The position numbers and the translations under genes are program-made. A stretch of 64,000 nucleotides of DNA from Candidatus Falkowbacteria bacterium. GTDB taxonomy: Bacteria > Patescibacteriota > Patescibacteriia > UBA11705. Positions 2,867 to 43,416 of this stretch are shown piece by piece (the first letter of the stretch is position 1; the number at the start of each line of letters is the position of its first letter). The stretch covers positions 201,631-265,630 of the forward strand of contig DOZJ01000006.1 of assembly GCA_003518055.1 (NCBI GenBank), given 5' to 3'. The notes under the pieces are model-generated. The model was not told the DNA's origin. It saw nothing but the letters and a program-made list of their open reading frames with translations, and made no database searches.

Positions 2867-3904
2867 ATGTTTGGATTTTTCAAAACAAAAATTAAGGTGG
2901 CCATCGTAGCTCCGCCATTTGGTGATACAGGCGGTCCGGAAGTGGTGGCGCAAATTTTGGCTGAATCCTTGCTGGATTTGGGCGTTGAGGTGACTCTTTT
3001 TGCTCCCGCTGACTGGAAAACCAAAGCAGCGCATATTCCGACGTTGGACAAAAGTATTTGGAATATGATAAATCTCAAGGGGATGGATAGCGGAATTCTA
3101 AGAAATTTTGTGACGGCCAGTCAGGTAAAAATCATTGATTATCAAGATGATTTTGACATAATCCATTTGCATTCGCAGACATATGCCTACGCTATCGCCA
3201 AAAATCTGCGAAAACCATGTGTTTTGTCGCTGCACAACCGGTTTACCAGAGGATTTTTGAAGCAAATAAAACAAGCTGGAATATACCCGGTCGCCTTGTC
3301 GAGATCGCAAAGAGGTCAACAAAGAGTTTCGGCGGTGATTATGAACGGAGTGCCGACAGCGGATATCACATATTCAGTTGAGCGTGGGCAGTATTTGATT
3401 TTTGTTGGTCGTTTGACCGACCAGAAGGGGGTTGATACAGCAATTCAGATTGCGTTGAAAGCAAAAAAGAAATTGTTGATTTTTGGCCGGATTGGTAATT
3501 CGGAAAAGCGCCAAAGATTTTATCAGAAAAAAATTGCGCCATATTTGAATAAAAGGGTTATTTATAAGGGTGAGGTTGGGCATAATGAAATTTATGAATA
3601 TTTGCGCGGGGCGGAAGCATTGCTTTTCCCAATTAGACGACCTGAGGTGTGTCCGATGGTGATGGCGGAGGCGTGGGCGTGTGGTACGCCGGTTATTGGG
3701 AGCAAAGTTGATCCTTTGCCCGAGATGGTTAAAAATAAAAAAGTTGCTTTTTTGTCTGATAATTTTAATGATTTGGTAGCGGCGGTAAAGAATCTTGATC
3801 AATTTGACCGGCTGGAATGTCGAAACTACGCTGAAACTTATTTTGATAGCAAAGTAATGGCGGGGAGATATTTGGAGTTGTATAAAAAGATTTTGAAGAA
3901 ATAA
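2867..3904 (+). CDS. glycosyltransferase family 4 (GT-B, EX7E motif)
   Basis: 345 aa with a typical GT4 C-terminal domain (EVCPMVMAEAWACGTPVIGSKVDPLPEMV). Confidence 0.75.
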   Translation: MFGFFKTKIKVAIVAPPFGDTGGPEVVAQILAESLLDLGVEVTLFAPADWKTKAAHIPTLDKSIWNMINLKGMDSGILRNFVTASQVKIIDYQDDFDIIHLHSQTYAYAIAKNLRKPCVLSLHNRFTRGFLKQIKQAGIYPVALSRSQRGQQRVSAVIMNGVPTADITYSVERGQYLIFVGRLTDQKGVDTAIQIALKAKKKLLIFGRIGNSEKRQRFYQKKIAPYLNKRVIYKGEVGHNEIYEYLRGAEALLFPIRRPEVCPMVMAEAWACGTPVIGSKVDPLPEMVKNKKVAFLSDNFNDLVAAVKNLDQFDRLECRNYAETYFDSKVMAGRYLELYKKILKK

Positions 3905-3909
3905 TTAAT

Positions 3910-5076
3910 ATGTCTTATAGACGATTGAAACAATCAAAATCATCAAAGGCGCGGCGAGGTCAGCTGACAACGCGACGCGGAGTATTGGAAACGCCGTTTT
4001 TTATGCCGATCGCGACCAAAGCAGCGGTTAAAAGTTTGACTTATGAAGATTTGCAAGCGCTCGAGGCGCAAATTGTGCTCAGCAATACATATCATTTGAT
4101 GCTCAAGCCGGGAAATTCATTGATAAAAAAAGTTGGAGGATTGCATCACTTTATGAATTGGGATAAACCGATTTTAACCGATAGCGGCGGTTTTCAGGTG
4201 TTTTCATTATCCAAAATCAGAAAGATTACCGAAGAAGGGGTTGAATTTCGGTCACACATTGATGGCAGCAAACACTTTATAAAACCGGAAGATTCAATTC
4301 AGATTCAGTTGGATTTGGGGTCGGATATTGTCATGGCTTTTGATGAATGTGTGGAATTGCCGGCGAAAAAAGAATATCTGGAGAAATCCGTGGAGTTGAC
4401 AACGAGATGGGCGAAGCGGTGTCAAGAGTATTTCGTTTCAAATTTACGAAAGGTTACGAATAATACGAAAACAAGACAGCCATTATTGTTTGGGATTGTG
4501 CAGGGAGGGTTGGATAAGGGGTTGCGCAAAAAAAGTGCTCAGGATTTGGTGAGTATTGGTTTCGACGGTTATGCGATTGGAGGCTTGTCCGTGGGAGAGT
4601 CGGAAAAAGAAATGTATAAAGTGTTGGATTATATCACTGATGAATTACCGGAAGATAAGCCCAGATACCTCATGGGTGTTGGCCGACCGGAAAACATCAT
4701 AAACGCGGTTAAAAGAGGTGTGGATATGTTTGATTGCGTGATTCCGACCAGAGAGGCGAGGCATGGGCGGCTCTACCTGTGGCGTGATGGGTTACGAAAT
4801 TACAAAAGGTTGCGAAAGGTTACAAAAACTAAACAGCTAAATATTTTAAATAATCCGAAGAGTTGTTATAAAACAATCAACATCACGTCGGAAAAGTATT
4901 CAAAGAAGTTTGAGCCGATAAACGCGGAATCGAAATTTCCGGTGTTGAGGAATTATACCAAAGCGTATTTGAGGCACTTGTTTTCTGTTAACGAACCTTT
5001 GGCCATCAGATTGGCGACTTTGAACAATTTGGAGTTTTATTTGGGATTGATGGAGAAAATTAGGCGGGCGATATAA
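3910..5076 (+). CDS. tgt: queuine tRNA-ribosyltransferase Tgt (divergent, zinc-site cysteines absent)
   Basis: TIM-barrel Tgt motifs are present (LTDSGGFQV, FDCVIPTR, GVGRPE). The region that normally carries CxCxxC is replaced by a lysine-rich insertion, and a second small insertion lies at 4441-4470. Confidence 0.85.
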   Translation: MSYRRLKQSKSSKARRGQLTTRRGVLETPFFMPIATKAAVKSLTYEDLQALEAQIVLSNTYHLMLKPGNSLIKKVGGLHHFMNWDKPILTDSGGFQVFSLSKIRKITEEGVEFRSHIDGSKHFIKPEDSIQIQLDLGSDIVMAFDECVELPAKKEYLEKSVELTTRWAKRCQEYFVSNLRKVTNNTKTRQPLLFGIVQGGLDKGLRKKSAQDLVSIGFDGYAIGGLSVGESEKEMYKVLDYITDELPEDKPRYLMGVGRPENIINAVKRGVDMFDCVIPTREARHGRLYLWRDGLRNYKRLRKVTKTKQLNILNNPKSCYKTINITSEKYSKKFEPINAESKFPVLRNYTKAYLRHLFSVNEPLAIRLATLNNLEFYLGLMEKIRRAI

Positions 5077-5143
5077 GGGGTGTTTGGAGAACAACGATTT
5101 TTGCGATGAAGGCGAATTTTGAAACAGGGTGGAGGTTTCTTCG

Positions 5144-5313
5144 TTTGACAGTTGACGGAGGCTGTCACGCCTGCCTGCCGGCAGGCAGGGCGCTACTTCG
5201 TACGCCTCGCAGCAAGAAAGAGAGGATTTTTTGCGAGGAAGGTACGACGAAGCAAACTACGATTGGCTGCTAATGGAGGCTGCTGCGTCGGTACTGCGTA
5301 CTCCTCGCAGCAA
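5144..5313. repeat. repeat family R1 (two units plus spacer; the first unit carries the R2 palindrome) upstream of the GIY-YIG gene
   Basis: Consensus unit TTGACAGCTAA(T/C)GGAGGCTGC(C/T)GCGTCGTTACTGCGTACTCCTCGCAGCAA. Units lie at 5144-5216 and 5265-5313, joined by the spacer TTTGCGAGGA(A)GGTACGACGAAGCAAACTACGA. Confidence 0.8.
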
Positions 5314-5326
5314 CAAACGTTTATCT

Positions 5327-5647
5327 ATGGGAGGGTTTGTATATATAATAACAAATAAATATAACACAGCTTTGTATGTAGGATCGGCAACTGATCTGCT
5401 GTTTAGAATTCAACAGCATAAGAACAAGGCATATAAGAGTTCATTTTCGGCTAGATATAATATTTCAAAATTGGTTTATTTTGAATGTTTTAATAGCAGA
5501 TATGAGGCATATCAACGAGAATATCAAATAAAGTCAGGATCAAGGGCTAAAAAGATTGCGTTAATAATAAAAGCGAATCCAGATTTTGATGATCTTTATG
5601 ATGATATTGTTTTAAATGGGATTGAAAAAAGTATATATAATAAATAG
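5327..5647 (+). CDS. GIY-YIG nuclease superfamily protein (YhbQ/UPF0213-like, ~106 aa)
   Basis: GFVYIITNKYNTALYVGSATDLLFRIQQH matches the GIY-YIG core of the short stand-alone family. The ATG at 5327 was chosen because the upstream part of the listed ORF is repeat sequence. Confidence 0.7.
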   Translation: MGGFVYIITNKYNTALYVGSATDLLFRIQQHKNKAYKSSFSARYNISKLVYFECFNSRYEAYQREYQIKSGSRAKKIALIIKANPDFDDLYDDIVLNGIEKSIYNK

Positions 5648-5686
5648 TGTAGCGTGAATTACGGAGCTGGTTGGAGACTGCTAAGA

Positions 5687-5922
5687 TTGACAGCTAATGG
5701 AGGCTGCTTCGTCGTAACTGGGTTGATGTGGAGTTCGAAACCGGGTGGAGCTGCTACATCTGTCAGCTAACGGAGGCTGCCACGGCGTTACTGCGTACGC
5801 CTCGCAGCAAAAGAAAGAGATGATATTTGCGAGGAGGTACGACGAAGCAAACTACGAACAAGCTGCCGTGTTTGCCTACTGATGGAGGCTGCTTCGTCGT
5901 TACTACGTACTCCTCGCAGCAA
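5687..5922. repeat. repeat family R1 (three units plus spacer) downstream of the GIY-YIG gene
   Basis: Units at 5687-5720 (truncated), 5758-5810 and 5876-5922. The same spacer as upstream lies at 5826-5857. Confidence 0.8.
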
Positions 5923-5948
5923 TAAAAAGGGGTTATGTTCAAAATAAT

Positions 5949-6680
5949 ATGTCTGCAAGCGATGTTGTAAAAGAATTAAAAGCTTTAAAAGATCCGAAAA
6001 AAGCCAATAATTTGGCTTGGTTTTTTAAAACAGGGAAGGGTGAATACGGCGAAGGTGATAAGTTTCTGGGAATCGTGATGGGTGATTTGCGGCAAATAGC
6101 GAAAAAATATTGTGACTTGCCGTTAACTGAAGTTCAAAAATTGGTTGTTAATCCTTACCACGAAATAAGAATGGCCGCGTTGTTGGTTCTGGTTTATAAA
6201 GTTACGGATTTACAGAAATTACGAATATTACGAACACGAGAAATTGATTCTTTGAAACAAATTTACGATTTTTATTTGAAAAATACTAAATATATTAATA
6301 ATTGGGATTTGGTGGATGTGACAACGCCGCAAATCGTAGGGAATTATTTGGTCAATCGAGACCGGAAGATATTATACAAATTAGCCAAGTCAAAGAGCTT
6401 GTGGGAAAAAAGAATCGCTGTCTTGGCGACCTTTTCGTTTATTAAAAATAGGGATTTTCATGATGCCTTGAAAATAGCTGAAGTTTTACTTAATGATAAT
6501 CATGACTTGATTCATAAGGCGGTAGGATGGATGCTCCGGGAGGTGGGTAAACGAGATCCGGCGGAGGAAAGAGCTTTTCTTGATAAACATGGTTTAAATA
6601 TGCCGAGGACGATGTTGCGATATGCGATTGAAAAGTTTCCGGAGCCAATGAGACAGAAGTATTTGAAAAGAAAATCCTAA
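5949..6680 (+). CDS. DNA alkylation repair enzyme (AlkD/AlkC HEAT-like repeat family)
   Basis: 243 aa with N-terminal KANNLAWFFKTGKGEYGEGDKFLG and a HEAT-repeat architecture typical of PF08713. Confidence 0.7.
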   Translation: MSASDVVKELKALKDPKKANNLAWFFKTGKGEYGEGDKFLGIVMGDLRQIAKKYCDLPLTEVQKLVVNPYHEIRMAALLVLVYKVTDLQKLRILRTREIDSLKQIYDFYLKNTKYINNWDLVDVTTPQIVGNYLVNRDRKILYKLAKSKSLWEKRIAVLATFSFIKNRDFHDALKIAEVLLNDNHDLIHKAVGWMLREVGKRDPAEERAFLDKHGLNMPRTMLRYAIEKFPEPMRQKYLKRKS

Positions 6681-6749: not shown

Positions 6750-7049
6750 TCACGGATTACTGTTTTTAGAAGTCTTGTCGCCAGTTAGTAGTTGAAATTT
6801 TTGGAATTTTTTGTAAAATACGATATAGGTGGAGACGTAGTTCAACGTGAGGGAGAGGCAAAACCACAGCAGCGGAGAAATATTAAAGGTCAAGAGATGA
6901 TTAACCAGCCAGAGATAAAATAGATTGACTGTAAGCCAGCAAATGGCGTATGGCCATGTGGATATATAATCGAACGTCAAGTGGAAAATTTGTTCATAAT
7001 AAGCGTTGGTTTTGGTGGTCATGTTGATTCTCCTTTGGTGATGGTTCAC
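6750..7049 (-). CDS. hypothetical small membrane protein
   Basis: 99 aa with 2-3 predicted TM helices. AAAGGAG RBS upstream. Confidence 0.4.
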   Translation of the reverse strand: MNHHQRRINMTTKTNAYYEQIFHLTFDYISTWPYAICWLTVNLFYLWLVNHLLTFNISPLLWFCLSLTLNYVSTYIVFYKKFQKFQLLTGDKTSKNSNP

Positions 7050-7089: not shown

Positions 7090-7563
7090 ATGAAGATTAC
7101 TATTTGTTTGAGCATTTTATTCTATCCGGAGATGTTGGCGATAAAAGAAGCGCTTGAAAATTCTGGTCATGAAGTTTTGGTGCCGCCGAGCGAAGTGGCG
7201 GATGGCGAGGGAAAAATGATTCCGGTGGCTGAATATTACAAATTGCGGCACGCGGATGAAGTGGGTGAAGATTGGGTTTGGGAAAGAAAAAAAGAAGCCA
7301 TGAGATGGCATTTTGACAAGGTGGCGGCGGCGAACGCGGTGTTGATTTTGAATTTTGATAAACATGGCATAAAAAATTATATAGGCGCGAATACTTTACT
7401 TGAGATGGGGCTGGCGTTTCATTTGGGTAAACCGATATATTTGTGGAATCCGATACCGGAGGGAATGAGCTATTTGGAAGAAATTAAGGGGATGATGCCG
7501 GTGGTGATAAATAATGATTTAAGTAAAATAATCCTCCGCCAAAGGACGCCTGCCTGCCGGTAG
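7090..7563 (+). CDS. nucleoside 2-deoxyribosyltransferase-like protein (putative); 3' end supplied by the R2 palindromic element
   Basis: 157 aa. The central LILNFDKHG...GANTLLEMGLAFHLGKPIYLW resembles the Rossmann-like deoxyribosyltransferase/DUF4406 fold. The last 9 codons and the stop lie inside repeat R2. Confidence 0.4.
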   Translation: MKITICLSILFYPEMLAIKEALENSGHEVLVPPSEVADGEGKMIPVAEYYKLRHADEVGEDWVWERKKEAMRWHFDKVAAANAVLILNFDKHGIKNYIGANTLLEMGLAFHLGKPIYLWNPIPEGMSYLEEIKGMMPVVINNDLSKIILRQRTPACR

Positions 7564-7577
7564 GCAGGGACGCGTCC
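7544..7577. repeat. repeat family R2: palindrome GGACGCCTGCCTGCCGGTAGGCAGGGACGCGTCC
   Basis: Near-perfect 34-bp inverted repeat. The same core CCTGCCTGCCGG(C/T)AGGCAGG also occurs at 5170-5189, 20367-20399 and 43374-43416. Confidence 0.85.
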
Positions 7578-7726: not shown

Positions 7727-8914
7727 ATGGTGCTTAATTTCCGGTTGTTTGAAAATTCAACTGATATGGTTGTGTCTGCGGCTAGTTTACAGCTCGAAAC
7801 AAATTTTGGCGTTAAGTTGATCAAGGTGCCCGGGTTGGTTCAAGTGATCAATACCTTGTTTAGAGAAGTCGTTCGGGTGAAAACCGACCGAGGTGAATTG
7901 CTGACAGGGGTTGATATCGGTTGGGACAATGTGGCGTGGATGCGTTTGCTTGATACCAATGACAAGGGATTTGAAGTTTTGTTGGAAGGCATTCAGGCGA
8001 CGCCGAAATATGATGAATCGAATTTGTTATTCTTGAAAGATCTCGGTGCTATGGCAGAATTGGTCAGGGCTTTGCACAGTCTCTGTCATTCGATTGTAGG
8101 TTTTTCTTCGAATCGAGTGGCTTTCGCGCTGCCCGATTGCGCGGTTATGACGAAGTATTTTTCCTTTGACGCGGCTGAGAGCGATAACCTGGAAGTTCTG
8201 GTTAAAAGACGGTTTGAGGAAACCTTTCCGTTCGCACCGGAGCATTTTATCTGGGGGTGGCGGGAATCAGCGCGAGTTGATGGTTGTATTTTTGTCATGG
8301 CGTCAGCGGTGAAGAAAGATCTTTATAATGGATATTTGGCGGTATTGACTCAAGCGGGTTTGGACCCAGTGGTCATGACGACTCGAGCTGAGGTTTATAG
8401 TTTGACTCACAGCATTCAAGAGAGCGCTCGAAGGGGTGAAAACGCGGTGGTGATTGATCTTGGTCGAGCGGATTTTTCCGTTTACTCGTATCAATCCGGC
8501 CGGTTGTGTTTTGACCGTTATGTGGCCCCAAGTGAAACAGGTGAAGTGTCGCTGGGACAGCTGTGGCGGACGATTAATTATGAAAGGTTGGTTGCCCTTC
8601 ATAGAATTGATCGGTTTTTTATTACCGGTATCGGAGCAGATGATCCGGAATTGGCTGAAAAGTTTCATCATACAGCCTGTGAAGTTTCAGCCCGGCATGA
8701 TCATTTGCCCGGTTTGTCTCTTGACGAAGACGAGCCGTCAACCGTAACTATAACCAATTCAGTTGCACCAAAGACTGAACCGGAAAGAATTGTGTTTGAA
8801 AAGCTGGAGGTGTTTGATCCAACGCTGGAAGTGTTTGATCCAACATTGAATAGCGCGATCCGTTTCGAGCCGGAAATGAGTCTGGCAGCGGCACTTGCCA
8901 GTATTAAGGGTTAA
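7727..8914 (+). CDS. hypothetical protein, possibly actin-like ATPase fold (PilM/FtsA-like)
   Basis: 395 aa with GVDIGWDNVAWMRLL (phosphate-1-like) and VIDLGRADFSV (phosphate-2-like). Internal tandem duplication LEVFDPT x2. Locally higher GC (~50%). Confidence 0.3.
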   Translation: MVLNFRLFENSTDMVVSAASLQLETNFGVKLIKVPGLVQVINTLFREVVRVKTDRGELLTGVDIGWDNVAWMRLLDTNDKGFEVLLEGIQATPKYDESNLLFLKDLGAMAELVRALHSLCHSIVGFSSNRVAFALPDCAVMTKYFSFDAAESDNLEVLVKRRFEETFPFAPEHFIWGWRESARVDGCIFVMASAVKKDLYNGYLAVLTQAGLDPVVMTTRAEVYSLTHSIQESARRGENAVVIDLGRADFSVYSYQSGRLCFDRYVAPSETGEVSLGQLWRTINYERLVALHRIDRFFITGIGADDPELAEKFHHTACEVSARHDHLPGLSLDEDEPSTVTITNSVAPKTEPERIVFEKLEVFDPTLEVFDPTLNSAIRFEPEMSLAAALASIKG

Positions 8915-8940
8915 GAACGTTATCAAGACGTTCTTTTTTA
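8915..8940 (+). terminator. rho-independent terminator (GAACGTtatcaagACGTTC + T-run)
   Basis: Stem-loop plus TTTTTT right after the stop of 7727-8914. Confidence 0.6.
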
Positions 8941-8997
8941 TTATCGTGAGGTGGTTGGTGGAGGCTCATTCATCTGTCGGTTAATGAGGCTGCCGCG

Positions 8998-9048
8998 CTT
9001 GACAGCTAATGGAGGCTGTCGCGTCGTTACTGCGTACTCCTCGCAGCG
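8998..9048. repeat. repeat family R1, solo unit (a degenerate partial unit lies at 8951-8997)
   Basis: CTTGACAGCTAATGGAGGCTGTCGCGTCGTTACTGCGTACTCCTCGCAGCGA. Confidence 0.8.
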
Positions 9049-9124
9049 AGGGAAAGGGATGATTTTTACATAGTTTTTATTTTGGTATATAATATGGATG
9101 TAAAAGATAAATAATTGGAAATTT

Positions 9125-14677: not shown

Positions 14678-16609
14678 ATGTCTTTTTTAATAAAAAAAAC
14701 CAAAATACGCAAAGTCAAAAAGTACGGTTATTCTTTCACGCAGAATAAAAGCGTGAAAATTGAACCGTCAAATCGTCGAATTAAAATTTTGATGGTATTT
14801 TTTACGTTGGTGACAATTGCGATTGTTTTTCGGCTGACGCGGCTGCAGATTTTCGATGGTGGTTATTATTACGCCTTGGCCAATGATCAGCATGAAATTT
14901 TTCAGCAGTTGTATCCGCAGCGAGGGACGATTTATGTTCAAGACAAATCAATAAGCGGTGAGGAAAAATTGTATCCAATCGCCACCAATCGGGAACTGAC
15001 TTTTATTTACGCCATCCCCTCGGTGATCACCGATCCGGAGGCGGTTTTGACGGCCTTGATGGAAGTACTTGATTTTGACGATGAGATCGGTAAACTAAAA
15101 AAAGATTTGCCGCCGATGGCGATGTCAGAGGAACTAACAGCGGAAGAGGTTGAAAAAGAAAAAAAACGATTGGAAGGATTGGCCCGGTCGGAAGCCCTTG
15201 ATTTATTTAAGGCCAAAACTCTCGAGCGTCTGAGTAAAAATGATGACCCGTATGAACCAATACAACATCGGGTGACTGATGACAGAGTCCAAAAGTTAAA
15301 AGAATATAATTTGGAGGGAATACGTTTTGTGGCTGAGGATGCTCGTTATTACCCCGAGGGGAATGTCGGGAGTGTTTTGCTTGGATTTGTCGGACATACA
15401 AGTGAGAATAATATGCTGAAAGGATATTACGGCATTGAGGGGAATTTTAATGAATACTTGGCGGGAGAGGCTGGTTTTATTCGCTCGGAGTCTGATGTGG
15501 CCGGACGATGGATCGCTTTGGCCGGTAAAGAGTTTAAGCAAGCCAAGGACGGATCGGACGTGGTTTTGACGATTGATAAAACTATTCAATATTACGCGTG
15601 CGATGAGTTGAATAATGGATTGAGCAAATATGGCGCCGATAGCGGTTCAATCATCGTTATGAATCCAAAAACAGGAGCGATTATCGCTATGTGTTCCGCT
15701 CCTGATTATAACCCGAATGATTACAACAAAGTTGATGACGTTTCAGTCTATAATAATCAGTCATTGATTACAGCGTATGAGCCGGGTTCGGTATTCAAGG
15801 CGGTTACCATGGCAATCGCTCTTGATTATGGTAAGGTGACGCCATTTACCACTTACAACGATACCGGGGTGGAAAAAATCGCGGAATACAGTATTCGAAA
15901 TTCAGATTTGAAAGCTCATGGAATCAGAACTATGACGCAAGTGTTGGAAGAGTCATTGAATACAGGCACGATTTTTGCCGCGAGGCAGGTGGGGATTGAT
16001 GTGTTTGCCGATTATGTCAAACGGTTTGGGTTCGGCCGGCAGACAGATTTTGATTTGACGCCGGAAGCTGCGGGGGACTTGAGTAATTTGGATAAAAAAC
16101 ATGATTTGTATTTGGCTACCGCTTCTTTTGGGCAGGGAATAACCGTCACTCCGATGCAAATGGTTCGCGCTTATGCCGCGATTGCCAATGAAGGTAAATT
16201 GATGCGGCCGTTTGTGGTAGAAAAGGTTAACGGTTTGGATCAGAGTAAAATTACAGAACCGAAGACGGTCGGACAGATAATTTCCAAGGAAACTGCGAAA
16301 CAACTTGGGAGTATGCTGGTGTCCGTGGTGCAAAATGGTCATGCCAAAGGCGCTCAGGTTTCGGGATATTTGGTCGCCGGTAAAACCGGCACAGCTCAGG
16401 TGCCTGATTTGGAACGTGGCGGCTATTCCGATAAAACGATTCATACGTTTGTTGGATATGCGCCTTATGATGACCCGGCGTTTGTCATTTTGGTTAAGTT
16501 CGATAATGTGAGAAACGGTCGGTTTGCTGAGTCCTCGGCTGTGCCCTCGTTTCAAAAAATTGCCAAATTTATTCTTGATTATTATGAAATTCCGCCGAGT
16601 GTAAGGTAG
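14678..16609 (+). CDS. ftsI: peptidoglycan D,D-transpeptidase FtsI/PBP2 (class B PBP)
   Basis: 643 aa with an N-terminal TM, a PBP dimerisation domain and a transpeptidase domain carrying SVFK and KTG motifs. Confidence 0.85.
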   Translation: MSFLIKKTKIRKVKKYGYSFTQNKSVKIEPSNRRIKILMVFFTLVTIAIVFRLTRLQIFDGGYYYALANDQHEIFQQLYPQRGTIYVQDKSISGEEKLYPIATNRELTFIYAIPSVITDPEAVLTALMEVLDFDDEIGKLKKDLPPMAMSEELTAEEVEKEKKRLEGLARSEALDLFKAKTLERLSKNDDPYEPIQHRVTDDRVQKLKEYNLEGIRFVAEDARYYPEGNVGSVLLGFVGHTSENNMLKGYYGIEGNFNEYLAGEAGFIRSESDVAGRWIALAGKEFKQAKDGSDVVLTIDKTIQYYACDELNNGLSKYGADSGSIIVMNPKTGAIIAMCSAPDYNPNDYNKVDDVSVYNNQSLITAYEPGSVFKAVTMAIALDYGKVTPFTTYNDTGVEKIAEYSIRNSDLKAHGIRTMTQVLEESLNTGTIFAARQVGIDVFADYVKRFGFGRQTDFDLTPEAAGDLSNLDKKHDLYLATASFGQGITVTPMQMVRAYAAIANEGKLMRPFVVEKVNGLDQSKITEPKTVGQIISKETAKQLGSMLVSVVQNGHAKGAQVSGYLVAGKTGTAQVPDLERGGYSDKTIHTFVGYAPYDDPAFVILVKFDNVRNGRFAESSAVPSFQKIAKFILDYYEIPPSVR

Positions 16610-16654
16610 GTCATCGATAGATAATTCGGAATGGAATCGGTAGATGTTGCTTCG

Positions 16655-16706
16655 TTTGACAGCTAACGGAGGCTGCCGCGTCGTTACTGCGTACTCCTCG
16701 CAGCAA
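16655..16706. repeat. repeat family R1, solo unit between ftsI and murF
   Basis: TTTGACAGCTAACGGAGGCTGCCGCGTCGTTACTGCGTACTCCTCGCAGCAA. Confidence 0.8.
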
Positions 16707-16774
16707 TAAAAGTTTAATGTCGGGAGTTGAAATTCTTGTGAAATTGATATATAATGAATATTATTCATTGAAAA

Positions 16775-20357: not shown

Positions 20358-20409
20358 TCCGCCAAAGGACGCCTGCCTGCCGGTAGGCAGGGATGCGCCT
20401 CTGGCGCAG
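20358..20409. repeat. repeat family R2 (extended copy, identical in its outer arms to the 7533-7588 copy)
   Basis: ATCCGCCAAAGGACGCCTGCCTGCCGGTAGGCAGGGATGCGCCTCTGGCGCAG. Confidence 0.85.
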
Positions 20410-43373: not shown

Positions 43374-43416
43374 CATGCTGAGCCTGCCTGCCGGTAGGCA
43401 GGGCCCTCGAAGCATG
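43374..43416. repeat. repeat family R2 (43-bp palindrome CATGCTGAGCCTGCCTGCCGGTAGGCAGGGCCCTCGAAGCATG)
   Basis: Same core as the other R2 copies, sitting between eno and gpmI. It is followed at 43436-43462 by a second hairpin GTCACCCttcaagagcctcaGGGTGAC. Confidence 0.85.

What the first reader, a model, noticed from the sequence alone, without database searches (positions are those of the whole stretch)
5139..5935. YhbQ-like GIY-YIG gene embedded in a nest of a ~55-bp dispersed repeat (R1), with solo R1 copies at 8998-9048 and 16655-16706
Unit consensus: TTGACAGCTAA(T/C)GGAGGCTGC(C/T)GCGTCGTTACTGCGTACTCCTCGCAGCAA. Two units plus a conserved spacer (TTTGCGAGGAGGTACGACGAAGCAAACTACGA, partly complementary to the unit) precede the small GIY-YIG ORF, and three units plus the same spacer follow it. 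Solo units sit in the 3' intergenic regions of the PilM-like gene and of ftsI. One upstream unit carries the unrelated R2 palindrome as an insertion. The unit and spacer complementarity predicts an extended RNA or DNA secondary structure. This looks like a MITE/REP-like element, possibly mobilised in trans or associated with the GIY-YIG nuclease.
Basis: seen in the sequence. Interest (0 to 1): 0.6.

Follow-up and report, generated by a model that had tools for sequence, protein, structure and literature searches.

The report
Ssn-type GIY-YIG nuclease with cognate repeats
The small GIY-YIG gene and its surrounding repeats are a candidate-phyla (Falkowbacteria) example of the Ssn system described in 2025, in which a tiny single-strand-DNA nuclease sits among the hairpin repeats it recognises. 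It is therefore a new member of a known kind, not a new kind of element.

Summary
Eight R1 copies or part-copies, all on the + strand, lie at three loci in the window, and a ninth lies on a separate contig (L002).

The 106-aa GIY-YIG ORF (5327-5647) sits between two ~200-nt direct repeats. Each repeat is built from R1 units plus an inverted "spacer".

The interpretation needs re-framing. The "spacer" is the canonical unit of a repeat family that accompanies homologous GIY-YIG genes in Bacteroidota. It is 23/24 identical there, although the proteins are only ~62% identical. R1 is the same unit, inverted and lengthened.

The protein is a homologue of Neisseria SsnA (37% identity; tblastn E 5e-11). 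SsnA is the site-specific ssDNA endonuclease of Chenal et al. 2025 (PMC11893778), whose gene is flanked by its cognate hairpin repeats (NTS/SRM).

So this is an SRM-ssn-SRM module. It is absent from the orthologous tgt/alkylation-repair junction of the closest genome, and the gene has 28.7% GC against a 44% background. It was probably acquired horizontally.

Two points appear new. The host phylum is not mentioned in the paper's main text, and the published degenerate SRM search string does not match this repeat class.

Nuclease activity on these repeats, and their mobility, are inferred rather than shown.

The parts
5094..5125 (+). Possible decayed forward unit (GATTTTTGCGATGAAGGCGAA...) in front of R1 copy u1
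   Evidence: It aligns with the arm of the second composite in alignment A1 and with the right-flank counterpart. This rests on sequence similarity only and is low confidence.
5145..5215 (+). R1 copy u1 (reverse-orientation unit), interrupted by the 20-bp R2 palindrome at 5170-5189
   Evidence: nhmmer E 3.8e-11. The clean insertion is seen against copy u4.
5228..5262 (+). It is the 5' arm of composite hairpin cA.
   Evidence: It is homologous to the Bacteroidota/IMG-VR motif CGTCATTGCGAGGAGGNACGACGAAGCAATC.
5263..5313 (+). R1 copy u2, the 3' arm of composite hairpin cA. It ends 14 nt before the ssn start codon.
   Evidence: Hairpin z is -3.9 as RNA and as + strand ssDNA.
5327..5647 (+). ssn-like gene: a 106-aa single-domain GIY-YIG nuclease
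   Evidence: Pfam PF01541 E 3e-15. It is 37% identical to the NTS-flanked N. gonorrhoeae ssnA product (tblastn 5e-11; pairwise 2e-21). Tyr6, Tyr17, Gly19, Arg27, His31 and Glu65 are invariant in alignment A4. GC is 28.7% against an ORF mean of 43.9%.
5687..5720 (+). R1 copy u3, truncated to its 5' 34 nt
   Evidence: nhmmer model positions 1-34, E 2e-8.
5760..5810 (+). R1 copy u4
5826..5857 (+). Forward unit, "spacer" B: TTTGCGAGGAGGTACGACGAAGCAAACTACGA. It is the 5' arm of composite hairpin cB.
   Evidence: It is 23/24 identical to the motif upstream of the Bacteroidota homologue in L092-L096.
5872..5922 (+). R1 copy u5, the 3' arm of composite hairpin cB
   Evidence: Hairpin z is -4.4 as RNA and -6.9 / -7.05 as ssDNA on the two strands.
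8975..9049 (+). Dispersed R1 copy (8999-9049) with an extra 5' half-unit (8975-8997), 3' of the PilM-like gene
   Evidence: It lies downstream of the intrinsic terminator at 8913-8935 and upstream of the promoter-like site at 9065-9093.
16656..16706 (+). Dispersed R1 copy, 3' of the ftsI-type PBP gene
   Evidence: It lies upstream of the promoter-like site at 16727-16755.

Best explanation
The 106-aa protein is a member of the Ssn family of single-domain GIY-YIG nucleases. R1 and the "spacer" are its cognate Ssn-related repeats.

Each unit is a small stem-loop closed by a 5-bp stem: TTTGC...GCAAA in the spacer and GCTGC...GCAGC in R1. A forward unit and a reverse unit together form a ~90-105-nt hairpin when the DNA is single-stranded.

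By analogy with the characterised Neisseria, N. elongata, N. wadsworthii and Wolbachia enzymes, the protein should bind this structure on one strand of ssDNA and cut a few nucleotides away. It should ignore dsDNA and RNA.

The whole SRM-ssn-SRM module (about 5094-5925) was most likely acquired horizontally, from a donor whose closest sequenced relatives are Bacteroidota. It inserted between tgt and the DNA-alkylation-repair gene. A few units then spread to nearby intergenic spacers.

Shown here: protein homology, module architecture, cross-phylum co-occurrence of gene and motif, hairpin potential with covariation, and an empty orthologous site. Inferred: nuclease specificity, direction of transfer, how the units spread, and the cellular role (for example restricting or shaping recombination of incoming or replicative ssDNA).
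For: 1. **Protein homology.**
   - tblastn finds an N. gonorrhoeae gene at 37% identity, E 5e-11 in 7.3 Gb. The pairwise E is 2e-21.
   - That gene sits among 11 canonical NTS copies in 3.3 kb, which is the NTS-ssnA-NTS locus of PMC11893778.
2. **Domain and catalytic residues.** The protein is a single GIY-YIG domain, and its catalytic Tyr, Tyr, Arg and Glu are conserved.
3. **Motif conservation across phyla.**
   - The spacer core TTGCGAGGAGGTACGACGAAGCAA is 23/24 identical to a motif ~105 nt upstream of a 63%-identical Bacteroidota homologue (L092-L096).
   - The exact pattern occurs in 8 IMG/VR contigs. There it is always embedded as CGTCA-...-TCY, the same flanks as the NTS.
4. **Recurrent architecture.**
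   - Every distinct homologue locus examined (L092, L097, L107, L110) has forward and reverse units within 300 nt of the gene.
   - That is 3-5 TTGCGAG 7-mers per 0.6 kb, against 0.052 per kb in 1.3 Mb of control loci.
   - L107 has perfect 25-bp inverted repeats around the gene.
   - L110 has a direct-repeat composite on both sides, as in the window.
5. **R1 belongs to the same unit family.**
   - It aligns with reverse units such as L103 GACTGCTTCGTCGTACCTCCTCGCAGTGA.
   - The closing stem covaries: AT/GC/TA at one pair and TA/CG at the next, with 96.5% of cells paired and 0/500 shuffles reaching the observed score.
6. **Hairpins.** The composites are significantly stable as ssDNA on both strands.
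7. **Empty site and composition.**
   - The closest genome (Falkowbacteria CG10_39_11; TGT 76% identical) keeps the order GT4, tgt, alkylation-repair, ndt, pilM. Only 92 nt separate tgt and the alkylation gene, with no GIY-YIG and no R1.
   - The gene's GC is more than 4 sd below the ORF mean.
Against: - The published degenerate SRM search string finds nothing in the window or in the Bacteroidota loci. By that operational definition these are not SRMs.
- Single units have only a 5-bp stem, much weaker than the 9-bp NTS stem, and solo R1 copies show no significant fold.
- The window repeats lack the GTCA prefix that the paper says is crucial for SsnA-NTS interaction.
- cd10448 assignment was not run directly.
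- Only four R1 loci are known, three of them within 12 kb of the gene, so genome-wide expansion is not demonstrated.
- With a single syntenic outgroup, insertion cannot be formally distinguished from deletion.
- No biochemical data exist for this protein or for any Bacteroidota-type homologue.
Confidence: 0.8

Rival explanations
1. R1 is an RNA-level element, such as a terminator, 3'-UTR stabiliser or small RNA, which would explain why all copies point the same way as transcription and sit after stop codons. On this view the GIY-YIG gene merely landed among them.
For: - All eight copies in the window, and the one in L002, are co-oriented with the flanking genes and lie 36-62 nt after a stop codon.
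- Two R1 copies and one arm keep their closing stem only through G-T(U) wobble on the + strand.
Against: - There is no Rfam match.
- Solo R1 does not fold better than shuffles.
- No R1 was flagged as terminator-like and none is followed by a T-run. At 9 kb a canonical terminator (8913-8935) already precedes the array.
- Homologous units occur in both orientations around homologous genes in other phyla. This fits a DNA-level partner of the nuclease, not a host RNA signal.
- The + strand is also the G-rich, leading-strand sequence throughout the window. Orientation is therefore confounded with replication direction.
Confidence: 0.07
2. R1 plus spacer is an ordinary MITE or REP/BIME left by a conventional transposase (an IS or a RAYT) encoded elsewhere. 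Its association with the GIY-YIG gene would then be a coincidence of insertion hot-spots.
For: - The composite has imperfect terminal inverted repeats and is ~90-105 nt long, which is MITE-like.
- It is intergenic, and its clustered, alternating orientation resembles BIMEs.
Against: - No target-site duplications are visible at cA, cB or L002.
- The gene enclosed by the repeats is a GIY-YIG nuclease, not a DDE or HUH transposase.
- The same gene-repeat pairing recurs in Bacteroidota and Neisseria, and the motif is better conserved than the protein.
Confidence: 0.07
3. The nest is a purely local tandem or segmental duplication around a domesticated GIY-YIG repair nuclease of the YhbQ/UPF0213 type, with no functional link between repeat and protein.
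For: - The two flanks are ~200-nt direct repeats.
- Three of the four known loci lie within 12 kb of each other.
- All assemblies of this population are identical across the nest, so no activity is visible.
Against: - A copy lies on a separate contig (L002).
- There are no R1 copies in the sister genome.
- Motif and gene are linked across phyla.
- The protein is closer to SsnA (67 bits) than to UPF0213 (24 bits).
Confidence: 0.04

Closest known systems
[quoted passage not shown]
   Same: - The protein is a ~100-aa single-domain GIY-YIG and a detectable homologue of the NTS-flanked Neisseria gene.
- The gene is flanked on both sides by hairpin-forming inverted repeats, with a forward-reverse pair directly upstream of the start codon, as in N. 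gonorrhoeae.
- The repeats are intergenic and dispersed.
- The Bacteroidota form of the unit shares the CGTCATT...AATCY frame of the NTS.
   Different: - The stem-loop sequence differs: TTGCGAGG...GCAA, against TTCCCGCG...CGCGGGAA in the NTS.
- The closing stem is 5 bp, not 9 bp.
- The window copies have lost the GTCA prefix.
- R1 carries a ~7-nt internal insertion and a lineage-specific 5' extension (TTGACAGCTAATGGAG).
- The published SRM search string does not match.
- The host is a Patescibacteria/CPR genome, a group the paper's main text does not mention.
- Copy number appears low, not in the hundreds.
REP/BIME elements with RAYT (IS200/IS605-like HUH) transposases
   Same: - Short extragenic hairpin repeats cluster in alternating orientation and flank the gene of the protein thought to act on them.
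- Recognition is of ssDNA hairpins.
- PMC11893778 draws this analogy itself.
   Different: The enclosed protein is a hydrolytic GIY-YIG nuclease, not a Y1 HUH transposase. No covalent strand-transfer chemistry is known for it.
Free-standing GIY-YIG homing endonucleases (I-TevI / Seg type)
   Same: - It has a GIY-YIG catalytic core (weak TIGR01453 and 1MK0 similarity).
- It sits in an intergenic position between conserved genes.
- The site is empty in a relative.
   Different: - It has no DNA-binding domain.
- Homing does not produce flanking direct or inverted repeats.
- The family's characterised members cut ssDNA only.

Membership tests
Ssn nuclease / SRM system (PMC11893778) | Single-domain GIY-YIG protein of roughly 90-110 aa with no additional DNA-binding domain | tested here: met
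   The protein is 106 aa. The Pfam GIY-YIG match covers residues 3-76 and no other domain was found.
Ssn nuclease / SRM system (PMC11893778) | Homology to SsnA (the paper's operational criterion is tblastn E < 1e-10) and placement in CDD family cd10448 | tested here: met
   tblastn against the N. gonorrhoeae chromosome gives E 5e-11 and 37% identity over residues 5-95. The pairwise E is 2e-21. The target gene is embedded in 11 NTS copies. CDD/rpsblast assignment to cd10448 could not be run, so this is a proxy test.
Ssn nuclease / SRM system (PMC11893778) | Conserved GIY-YIG catalytic residues. The paper shows that mutating the conserved GIY-YIG tyrosines and a predicted cofactor-binding site abolishes cutting. 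| tested here: met
   Y6, Y17, G19, R27, H31, E65 and N84 are invariant in the alignment with the Neisseria and Bacteroidota homologues.
Ssn nuclease / SRM system (PMC11893778) | [quoted passage not shown] | tested here: met
   Composite cA lies upstream. A truncated R1, R1 copy u4 and composite cB lie downstream. Hairpin z ranges from -2.5 to -7.05 as ssDNA. The unit closing stem covaries.
Ssn nuclease / SRM system (PMC11893778) | Repeats match the published degenerate SRM search sequence HGTCWYN(0-2)YYVSBRHN(0-5)WNVSBRGN(0-2)RNCYNB | tested here: not met
   There are 0 matches in the window, L002, L092 and L097, against 7 in 1.3 Mb of control loci. The repeats are related to the NTS only through the CGTCATT...AATCY frame seen in the Bacteroidota and IMG/VR copies.
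Ssn nuclease / SRM system (PMC11893778) | Repeats dispersed through the genome and mostly intergenic | tested here: inconclusive
   There are four intergenic loci: three in about 84 kb of contig examined, plus L002. The rest of the 173-183-kb contig and the rest of the genome could not be fetched.
Ssn nuclease / SRM system (PMC11893778) | Strand-specific binding and cleavage of ssDNA next to the motif, with no activity on dsDNA or RNA | not testable with these tools
   This needs purified protein and oligonucleotide assays.
REP/BIME with RAYT | Repeats flank a gene for a Y1 HUH (IS200/IS605-like) transposase | tested here: not met
   The flanked gene is a GIY-YIG nuclease. The rest of the genome was not searched for RAYTs.
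MITE of a conventional IS | Terminal inverted repeats plus a target-site duplication at each insertion | tested here: not met
   Imperfect inverted ends are present, but no duplicated flanking bases are seen at cA, cB or the L002 composite.
YhbQ / UPF0213 GIY-YIG proteins | Closest similarity is to UPF0213 members | tested here: not met
   The UPF0213 structure 1ZG2 scores 24 bits (E 4.6e-4), against 67 bits for the Neisseria ssnA product.
Integron gene cassette (attC) | attC with RYYYAAC / GTTRRRY core sites, and an integrase | tested here: not met
   Reading shows no such cores at the ends of the composites. Copies also follow essential genes (the ftsI-type PBP).

The most novel reading that the evidence does not exclude
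The SRM-ssn-SRM module is itself a mobile element: an IS-like unit whose only protein is a hairpin-specific ssDNA GIY-YIG nuclease. On this reading it moved between phyla into a CPR genome, and R1 copies are its non-autonomous offspring.

The filled site here and the empty site in the sister Falkowbacteria genome would be a natural before/after pair. Together with the perfect 25-bp inverted ends in L107, they would let the ends and the insertion chemistry of this proposed transposon class be defined.
Probability: 0.3. Interest if true: 0.7.

Novelty: new member of a known kind. Interest (0 to 1): 0.4.

Why it matters
- **Range.** It places the Ssn/SRM system in an ultra-small CPR genome, a group the paper's main text does not mention.
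- **Detection.** A large Bacteroidota/CPR branch of the family uses a repeat class (CGTCATTGCGAGG...GCAATC and derivatives) that the published SRM search string does not detect. The reported 71% gene-motif association is therefore probably an underestimate.
- **Specificity.** The motif is far better conserved than the protein (23/24 nt against ~62% aa). This points to a specific recognition sequence that could be tested directly as a new enzyme/site pair for ssDNA tools.
- **Mobility.** The empty orthologous site and the anomalous GC are circumstantial support for the still-untested idea that these modules are mobile.

Tried and rejected
- **Rfam.** The gathering-threshold scan of the window and the E-value scan of 5050-5960 found only a tRNA and a chance lncRNA hit.
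- **R1 in public collections.** The exact R1 pattern gave 0 hits in 185,579 species-representative genomes. It gave 2 contigs of the same population in JGI metagenomes and 0 in IMG/VR. The Falkowbacteria-type arm pattern gave 0 in IMG/VR. The R1 form appears lineage-specific.
- **Published SRM regex.** No hits.
- **NCBIfam.** Only a sub-threshold match to a group I intron endonuclease model.
- **Integron attC reading.** Rejected: there are no core sites and no integrase, and copies follow essential genes.
- **Terminator reading.** Rejected.
- **Target-site duplications.** None found.
- **Polarising insertion against deletion.** Only L003 shares synteny.
- **Strain polymorphism.** All seven assemblies are 100% identical across the nest. 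Short-read contigs break at R1 copies.
- **Literature.** Searches for COG2827 and YhbQ gave nothing useful. The Ssn paper came up from a search on the GIY-YIG superfamily.

Full report
**Source of the window**

The window comes from a groundwater Candidatus Falkowbacteria (Patescibacteria/CPR) population.
- Its proteins are found on 173-183-kb contigs Ga0103682_10000014 and ERZ909580 k127_82149.
- The closest species-representative genome is Falkowbacteria CG10_big_fil_rev_8_21_14_0_10_39_11, with TGT 76% identical.

**Check of the observation**

R1 is real and far beyond chance. A 39-nt core pattern gives 5 matches and none in 100 shuffles. Looser half-patterns and an nhmmer profile bring the total to eight copies or part-copies, all on the + strand:
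- 5145-5215, which holds a clean 20-bp insertion of the R2 palindrome
- 5263-5313
- 5687-5720 (5' 34 nt only)
- 5760-5810
- 5872-5922
- 8975-8997 (half-unit)
- 8999-9049
- 16656-16706

The conserved spacer lies at 5228-5262 and 5826-5857.

The ORF is a single GIY-YIG domain (PF01541, E 3e-15). Its probable start is the ATG at 5327 (106 aa).

The two flanks of the ORF are themselves ~200-nt direct repeats, 5118-5316 and 5730-5925, 80% identical. Each consists of R1, an A-rich linker, the spacer, then R1.

A further spacer-plus-R1 composite lies on contig L002, which has no other similarity to the window. L002 comes from the same metagenome as L001, which is 100% identical to the window.

No further copies occur in the 6 kb upstream or the 10 kb downstream of the window.

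**Anatomy**

A solo R1 has no fold better than shuffles as RNA or as ssDNA (z between +0.5 and -0.8).

The spacer is an inverted, shorter version of the 3' part of R1. Spacer plus R1 forms a 90-105-nt hairpin. RNA z is -3.9 and -4.4. ssDNA z is -3.9 and -2.5 for cA, and -6.9 and -7.05 for cB, on the two strands.

The functional unit is therefore an inverted pair, not the 55-nt R1 alone.

R1 copies are not terminators. None was flagged by the terminator scan. At 9 kb a canonical terminator (8913-8935) lies before the array. Strong promoter-like sites (9065-9093 and 16727-16755) follow the copies. R1 thus occupies the dead space between one gene's terminator and the next gene's promoter.

**Comparative evidence**

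The closest protein homologues (about 60-63% identity) are ~100-aa GIY-YIG proteins of Bacteroidota.

The spacer core TTGCGAGGAGGTACGACGAAGCAA reappears, with one mismatch in 24, about 105 nt upstream of such a homologue in L092-L096.

The exact pattern with one free position occurs in eight IMG/VR contigs. There it is always embedded as CGTCA-TTGCGAGGAGGNACGACGAAGCAA-TCY, and it is often followed by an inverted partner AGATTGC...CTCGCAATGACG.

All four distinct homologue loci examined carry forward and reverse units within 300 nt of the gene:
- L092: forward-reverse upstream, reverse downstream.
- L097: forward-reverse-reverse upstream, reverse downstream.
- L107: perfect 25-bp inverted repeats GGTCTTTGCGAGGCACGAAGCAATC around the gene.
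- L110 (Tamlana): a nest upstream, and a repeated forward-reverse composite on both sides, as in the window.

The 7-mer TTGCGAG occurs 3-5 times per 0.6 kb around these genes, against 0.052 per kb in 1.3 Mb of unrelated loci.

R1 aligns with reverse units such as L103 GACTGCTTCGTCGTACCTCCTCGCAGTGA and L092 GATTGCCACGCTCCACTGCGTTTCACTCGCAATGA. It differs by a ~7-nt internal insertion and a lineage-specific 5' extension.

Across these units the 5-bp closing stem covaries: ATTGC/GCAAT, ACTGC/GCAGT, GCTGC/GCAGC (R1) and TTTGC/GCAAA (window spacers).
- 96.5% of cells are paired.
- Three pairs show double changes.
- 0 of 500 shuffles reach the observed score, and all slid controls are far lower.

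The set was hand-curated and represents only about four independent changes, so this is supportive and not conclusive.

**Identification**

A literature search led to Chenal et al. 2025 (PMC11893778). That paper reports the following.
- SsnA of Neisseria meningitidis is a 94-aa single-domain GIY-YIG protein (CDD cd10448). It binds a ~28-nt hairpin repeat (NTS, CGTCATTCCCGCGMAVGCGGGAATCYRG) in ssDNA only, on one strand only, and cuts just upstream of it.
- ssnA homologues in many phyla are flanked by Ssn-related motifs. By the authors' degenerate pattern, 71% have at least one and 42% have one on both sides.
- The NTS-ssnA-NTS layout resembles an insertion sequence and the REP/RAYT system.

tblastn of the window protein against the plasmid collection happened to hit two N. 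gonorrhoeae chromosomes deposited as plasmids (37% identity, E 5e-11; pairwise 2e-21). The hit gene lies among 11 canonical NTS copies in 3.3 kb, with a forward-reverse pair directly upstream. This is the gonococcal ssnA locus.

The catalytic Tyr, Tyr, Arg and Glu are conserved.

The protein is much closer to this gene (67 bits) than to the UPF0213 structure 1ZG2 (24 bits). "YhbQ-like" is therefore imprecise.

The Bacteroidota unit shares the CGTCATT...AATCY frame of the NTS.

The window thus holds an SRM-ssn-SRM module.

**Where it departs from the published description**
- The authors' degenerate SRM string matches nothing in the window, L002, L092 or L097.
- The stem-loop sequence is different and the closing stem is short.
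- The window copies have lost the GTCA prefix.
- The paper's main text mentions neither Bacteroidota nor Patescibacteria.

This is a divergent repeat class within the known system, and the paper itself anticipates many enzyme/motif pairs.

**Origin**

The sister genome keeps the gene order glycosyltransferase, tgt, alkylation-repair, deoxyribosyltransferase-like, pilM-like. It has 92 nt between tgt and the alkylation gene where the window has 872 nt. It has no GIY-YIG gene and no R1 anywhere in 21 kb.

The ssn gene has 28.7% GC, against an ORF mean of 43.9% (sd 3.6). The repeats have ~52% GC.

Together with the Bacteroidota affinity of both the gene and the motif, this favours horizontal acquisition and insertion. 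With one syntenic outgroup, deletion in the sister lineage cannot be excluded.

All assemblies of this population are identical across the nest, so there is no sign of ongoing activity.

**Mechanism proposed**

Shown:
- homology to SsnA
- the gene-repeat architecture and its recurrence across phyla
- hairpin potential and stem covariation
- intergenic placement
- the empty site

Inferred:
- The protein recognises the hairpin formed by forward and reverse units (or single-unit stem-loops) on one strand of ssDNA and nicks nearby.
- The dispersed R1 copies derive from the module.
- The system acts on replicative or incoming ssDNA.

All R1 copies lie on the G-rich + strand (GC skew +0.2 to +0.29 across the window). 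That strand has the leading-strand sequence and serves as the lagging-strand template. The orientation is equally explained by co-direction with transcription.

**Verdict**

This is a new member, with a divergent repeat class, of the known Ssn/SRM system. Interest is moderate.

Noticed in passing
window 5170-5189, 7549-7568, 20372-20391, 43383-43402; L003 14591-14610: R2 is a 20-bp palindrome, CCTGCCTGCCGG[C/T]AGGCAGG. It forms a second hairpin-repeat family and is present in both Falkowbacteria genomes. The copy at 5170 is a clean insertion into an R1 unit. The other copies fall into two classes with conserved, partly self-complementary flanks: CCGCCAAAGGACG|R2|GAYGCG..GGCGC, and CATGCTGAR|R2|... 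The L003 copy lies directly after the PilM-like gene, the intergenic region that holds the R1 array in the window.
   Followed up: partly
window 8913-8935, 9065-9093, 16727-16755: A canonical intrinsic terminator follows the PilM-like gene. Strong promoter-like sites (11 of 12 matches) precede the next genes. The R1 copies sit between these signals.
   Followed up: partly
window 1-64000: GC skew is very strong and uniform (+0.09 to +0.29 in every 4-kb bin), even where genes are on the - strand. The whole window therefore lies on one replichore, with + as the leading-strand sequence.
   Followed up: no
L001 635-640 versus window 15508-15551: Contig Ga0208373_1048833 is otherwise 100% identical to the window. 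It lacks about 44 nt inside the ftsI-type PBP gene, which would shift the frame. This may be a strain variant or an assembly error.
   Followed up: no
L098 (NZ_CP119142.1 1880219-1883488): Two 2.17-Mb N. gonorrhoeae chromosomes are filed as plasmids in PLSDB. In this strain the ssnA reading frame has no in-frame ATG, GTG or TTG just upstream of the conserved VYILAS start. The nearby ATG at 1494 is out of frame, so the gonococcal copy may be 5'-damaged.
   Followed up: partly
L097 2337-2415 (- strand): A Flavo-1 RNA (RF01705, 43.4 bits, just above the gathering score) lies about 600 nt upstream of the Bacteroidota GIY-YIG homologue, in an 800-nt stretch without genes.
   Followed up: no
L100 (IMGVR_UViG_3300031454_000004) 233-256, 3664-3687, 6833-6856: Three copies of the canonical forward unit lie on the same strand within 8.3 kb of a contig classed as viral. 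No GIY-YIG gene is present in the stretch held. The units therefore also disperse in Bacteroidota-type or phage-like DNA with a strand bias.
   Followed up: no
window 16609-16640: Directly after the ftsI-type gene's stop codon, GGTCATCGATAGATAATTCGGAATGGAATCGG begins with GTCAT and ends with GGAATCGG, reminiscent of the NTS frame. It may be a decayed forward unit partnering the solo R1 at 16656, or it may be chance.
   Followed up: no
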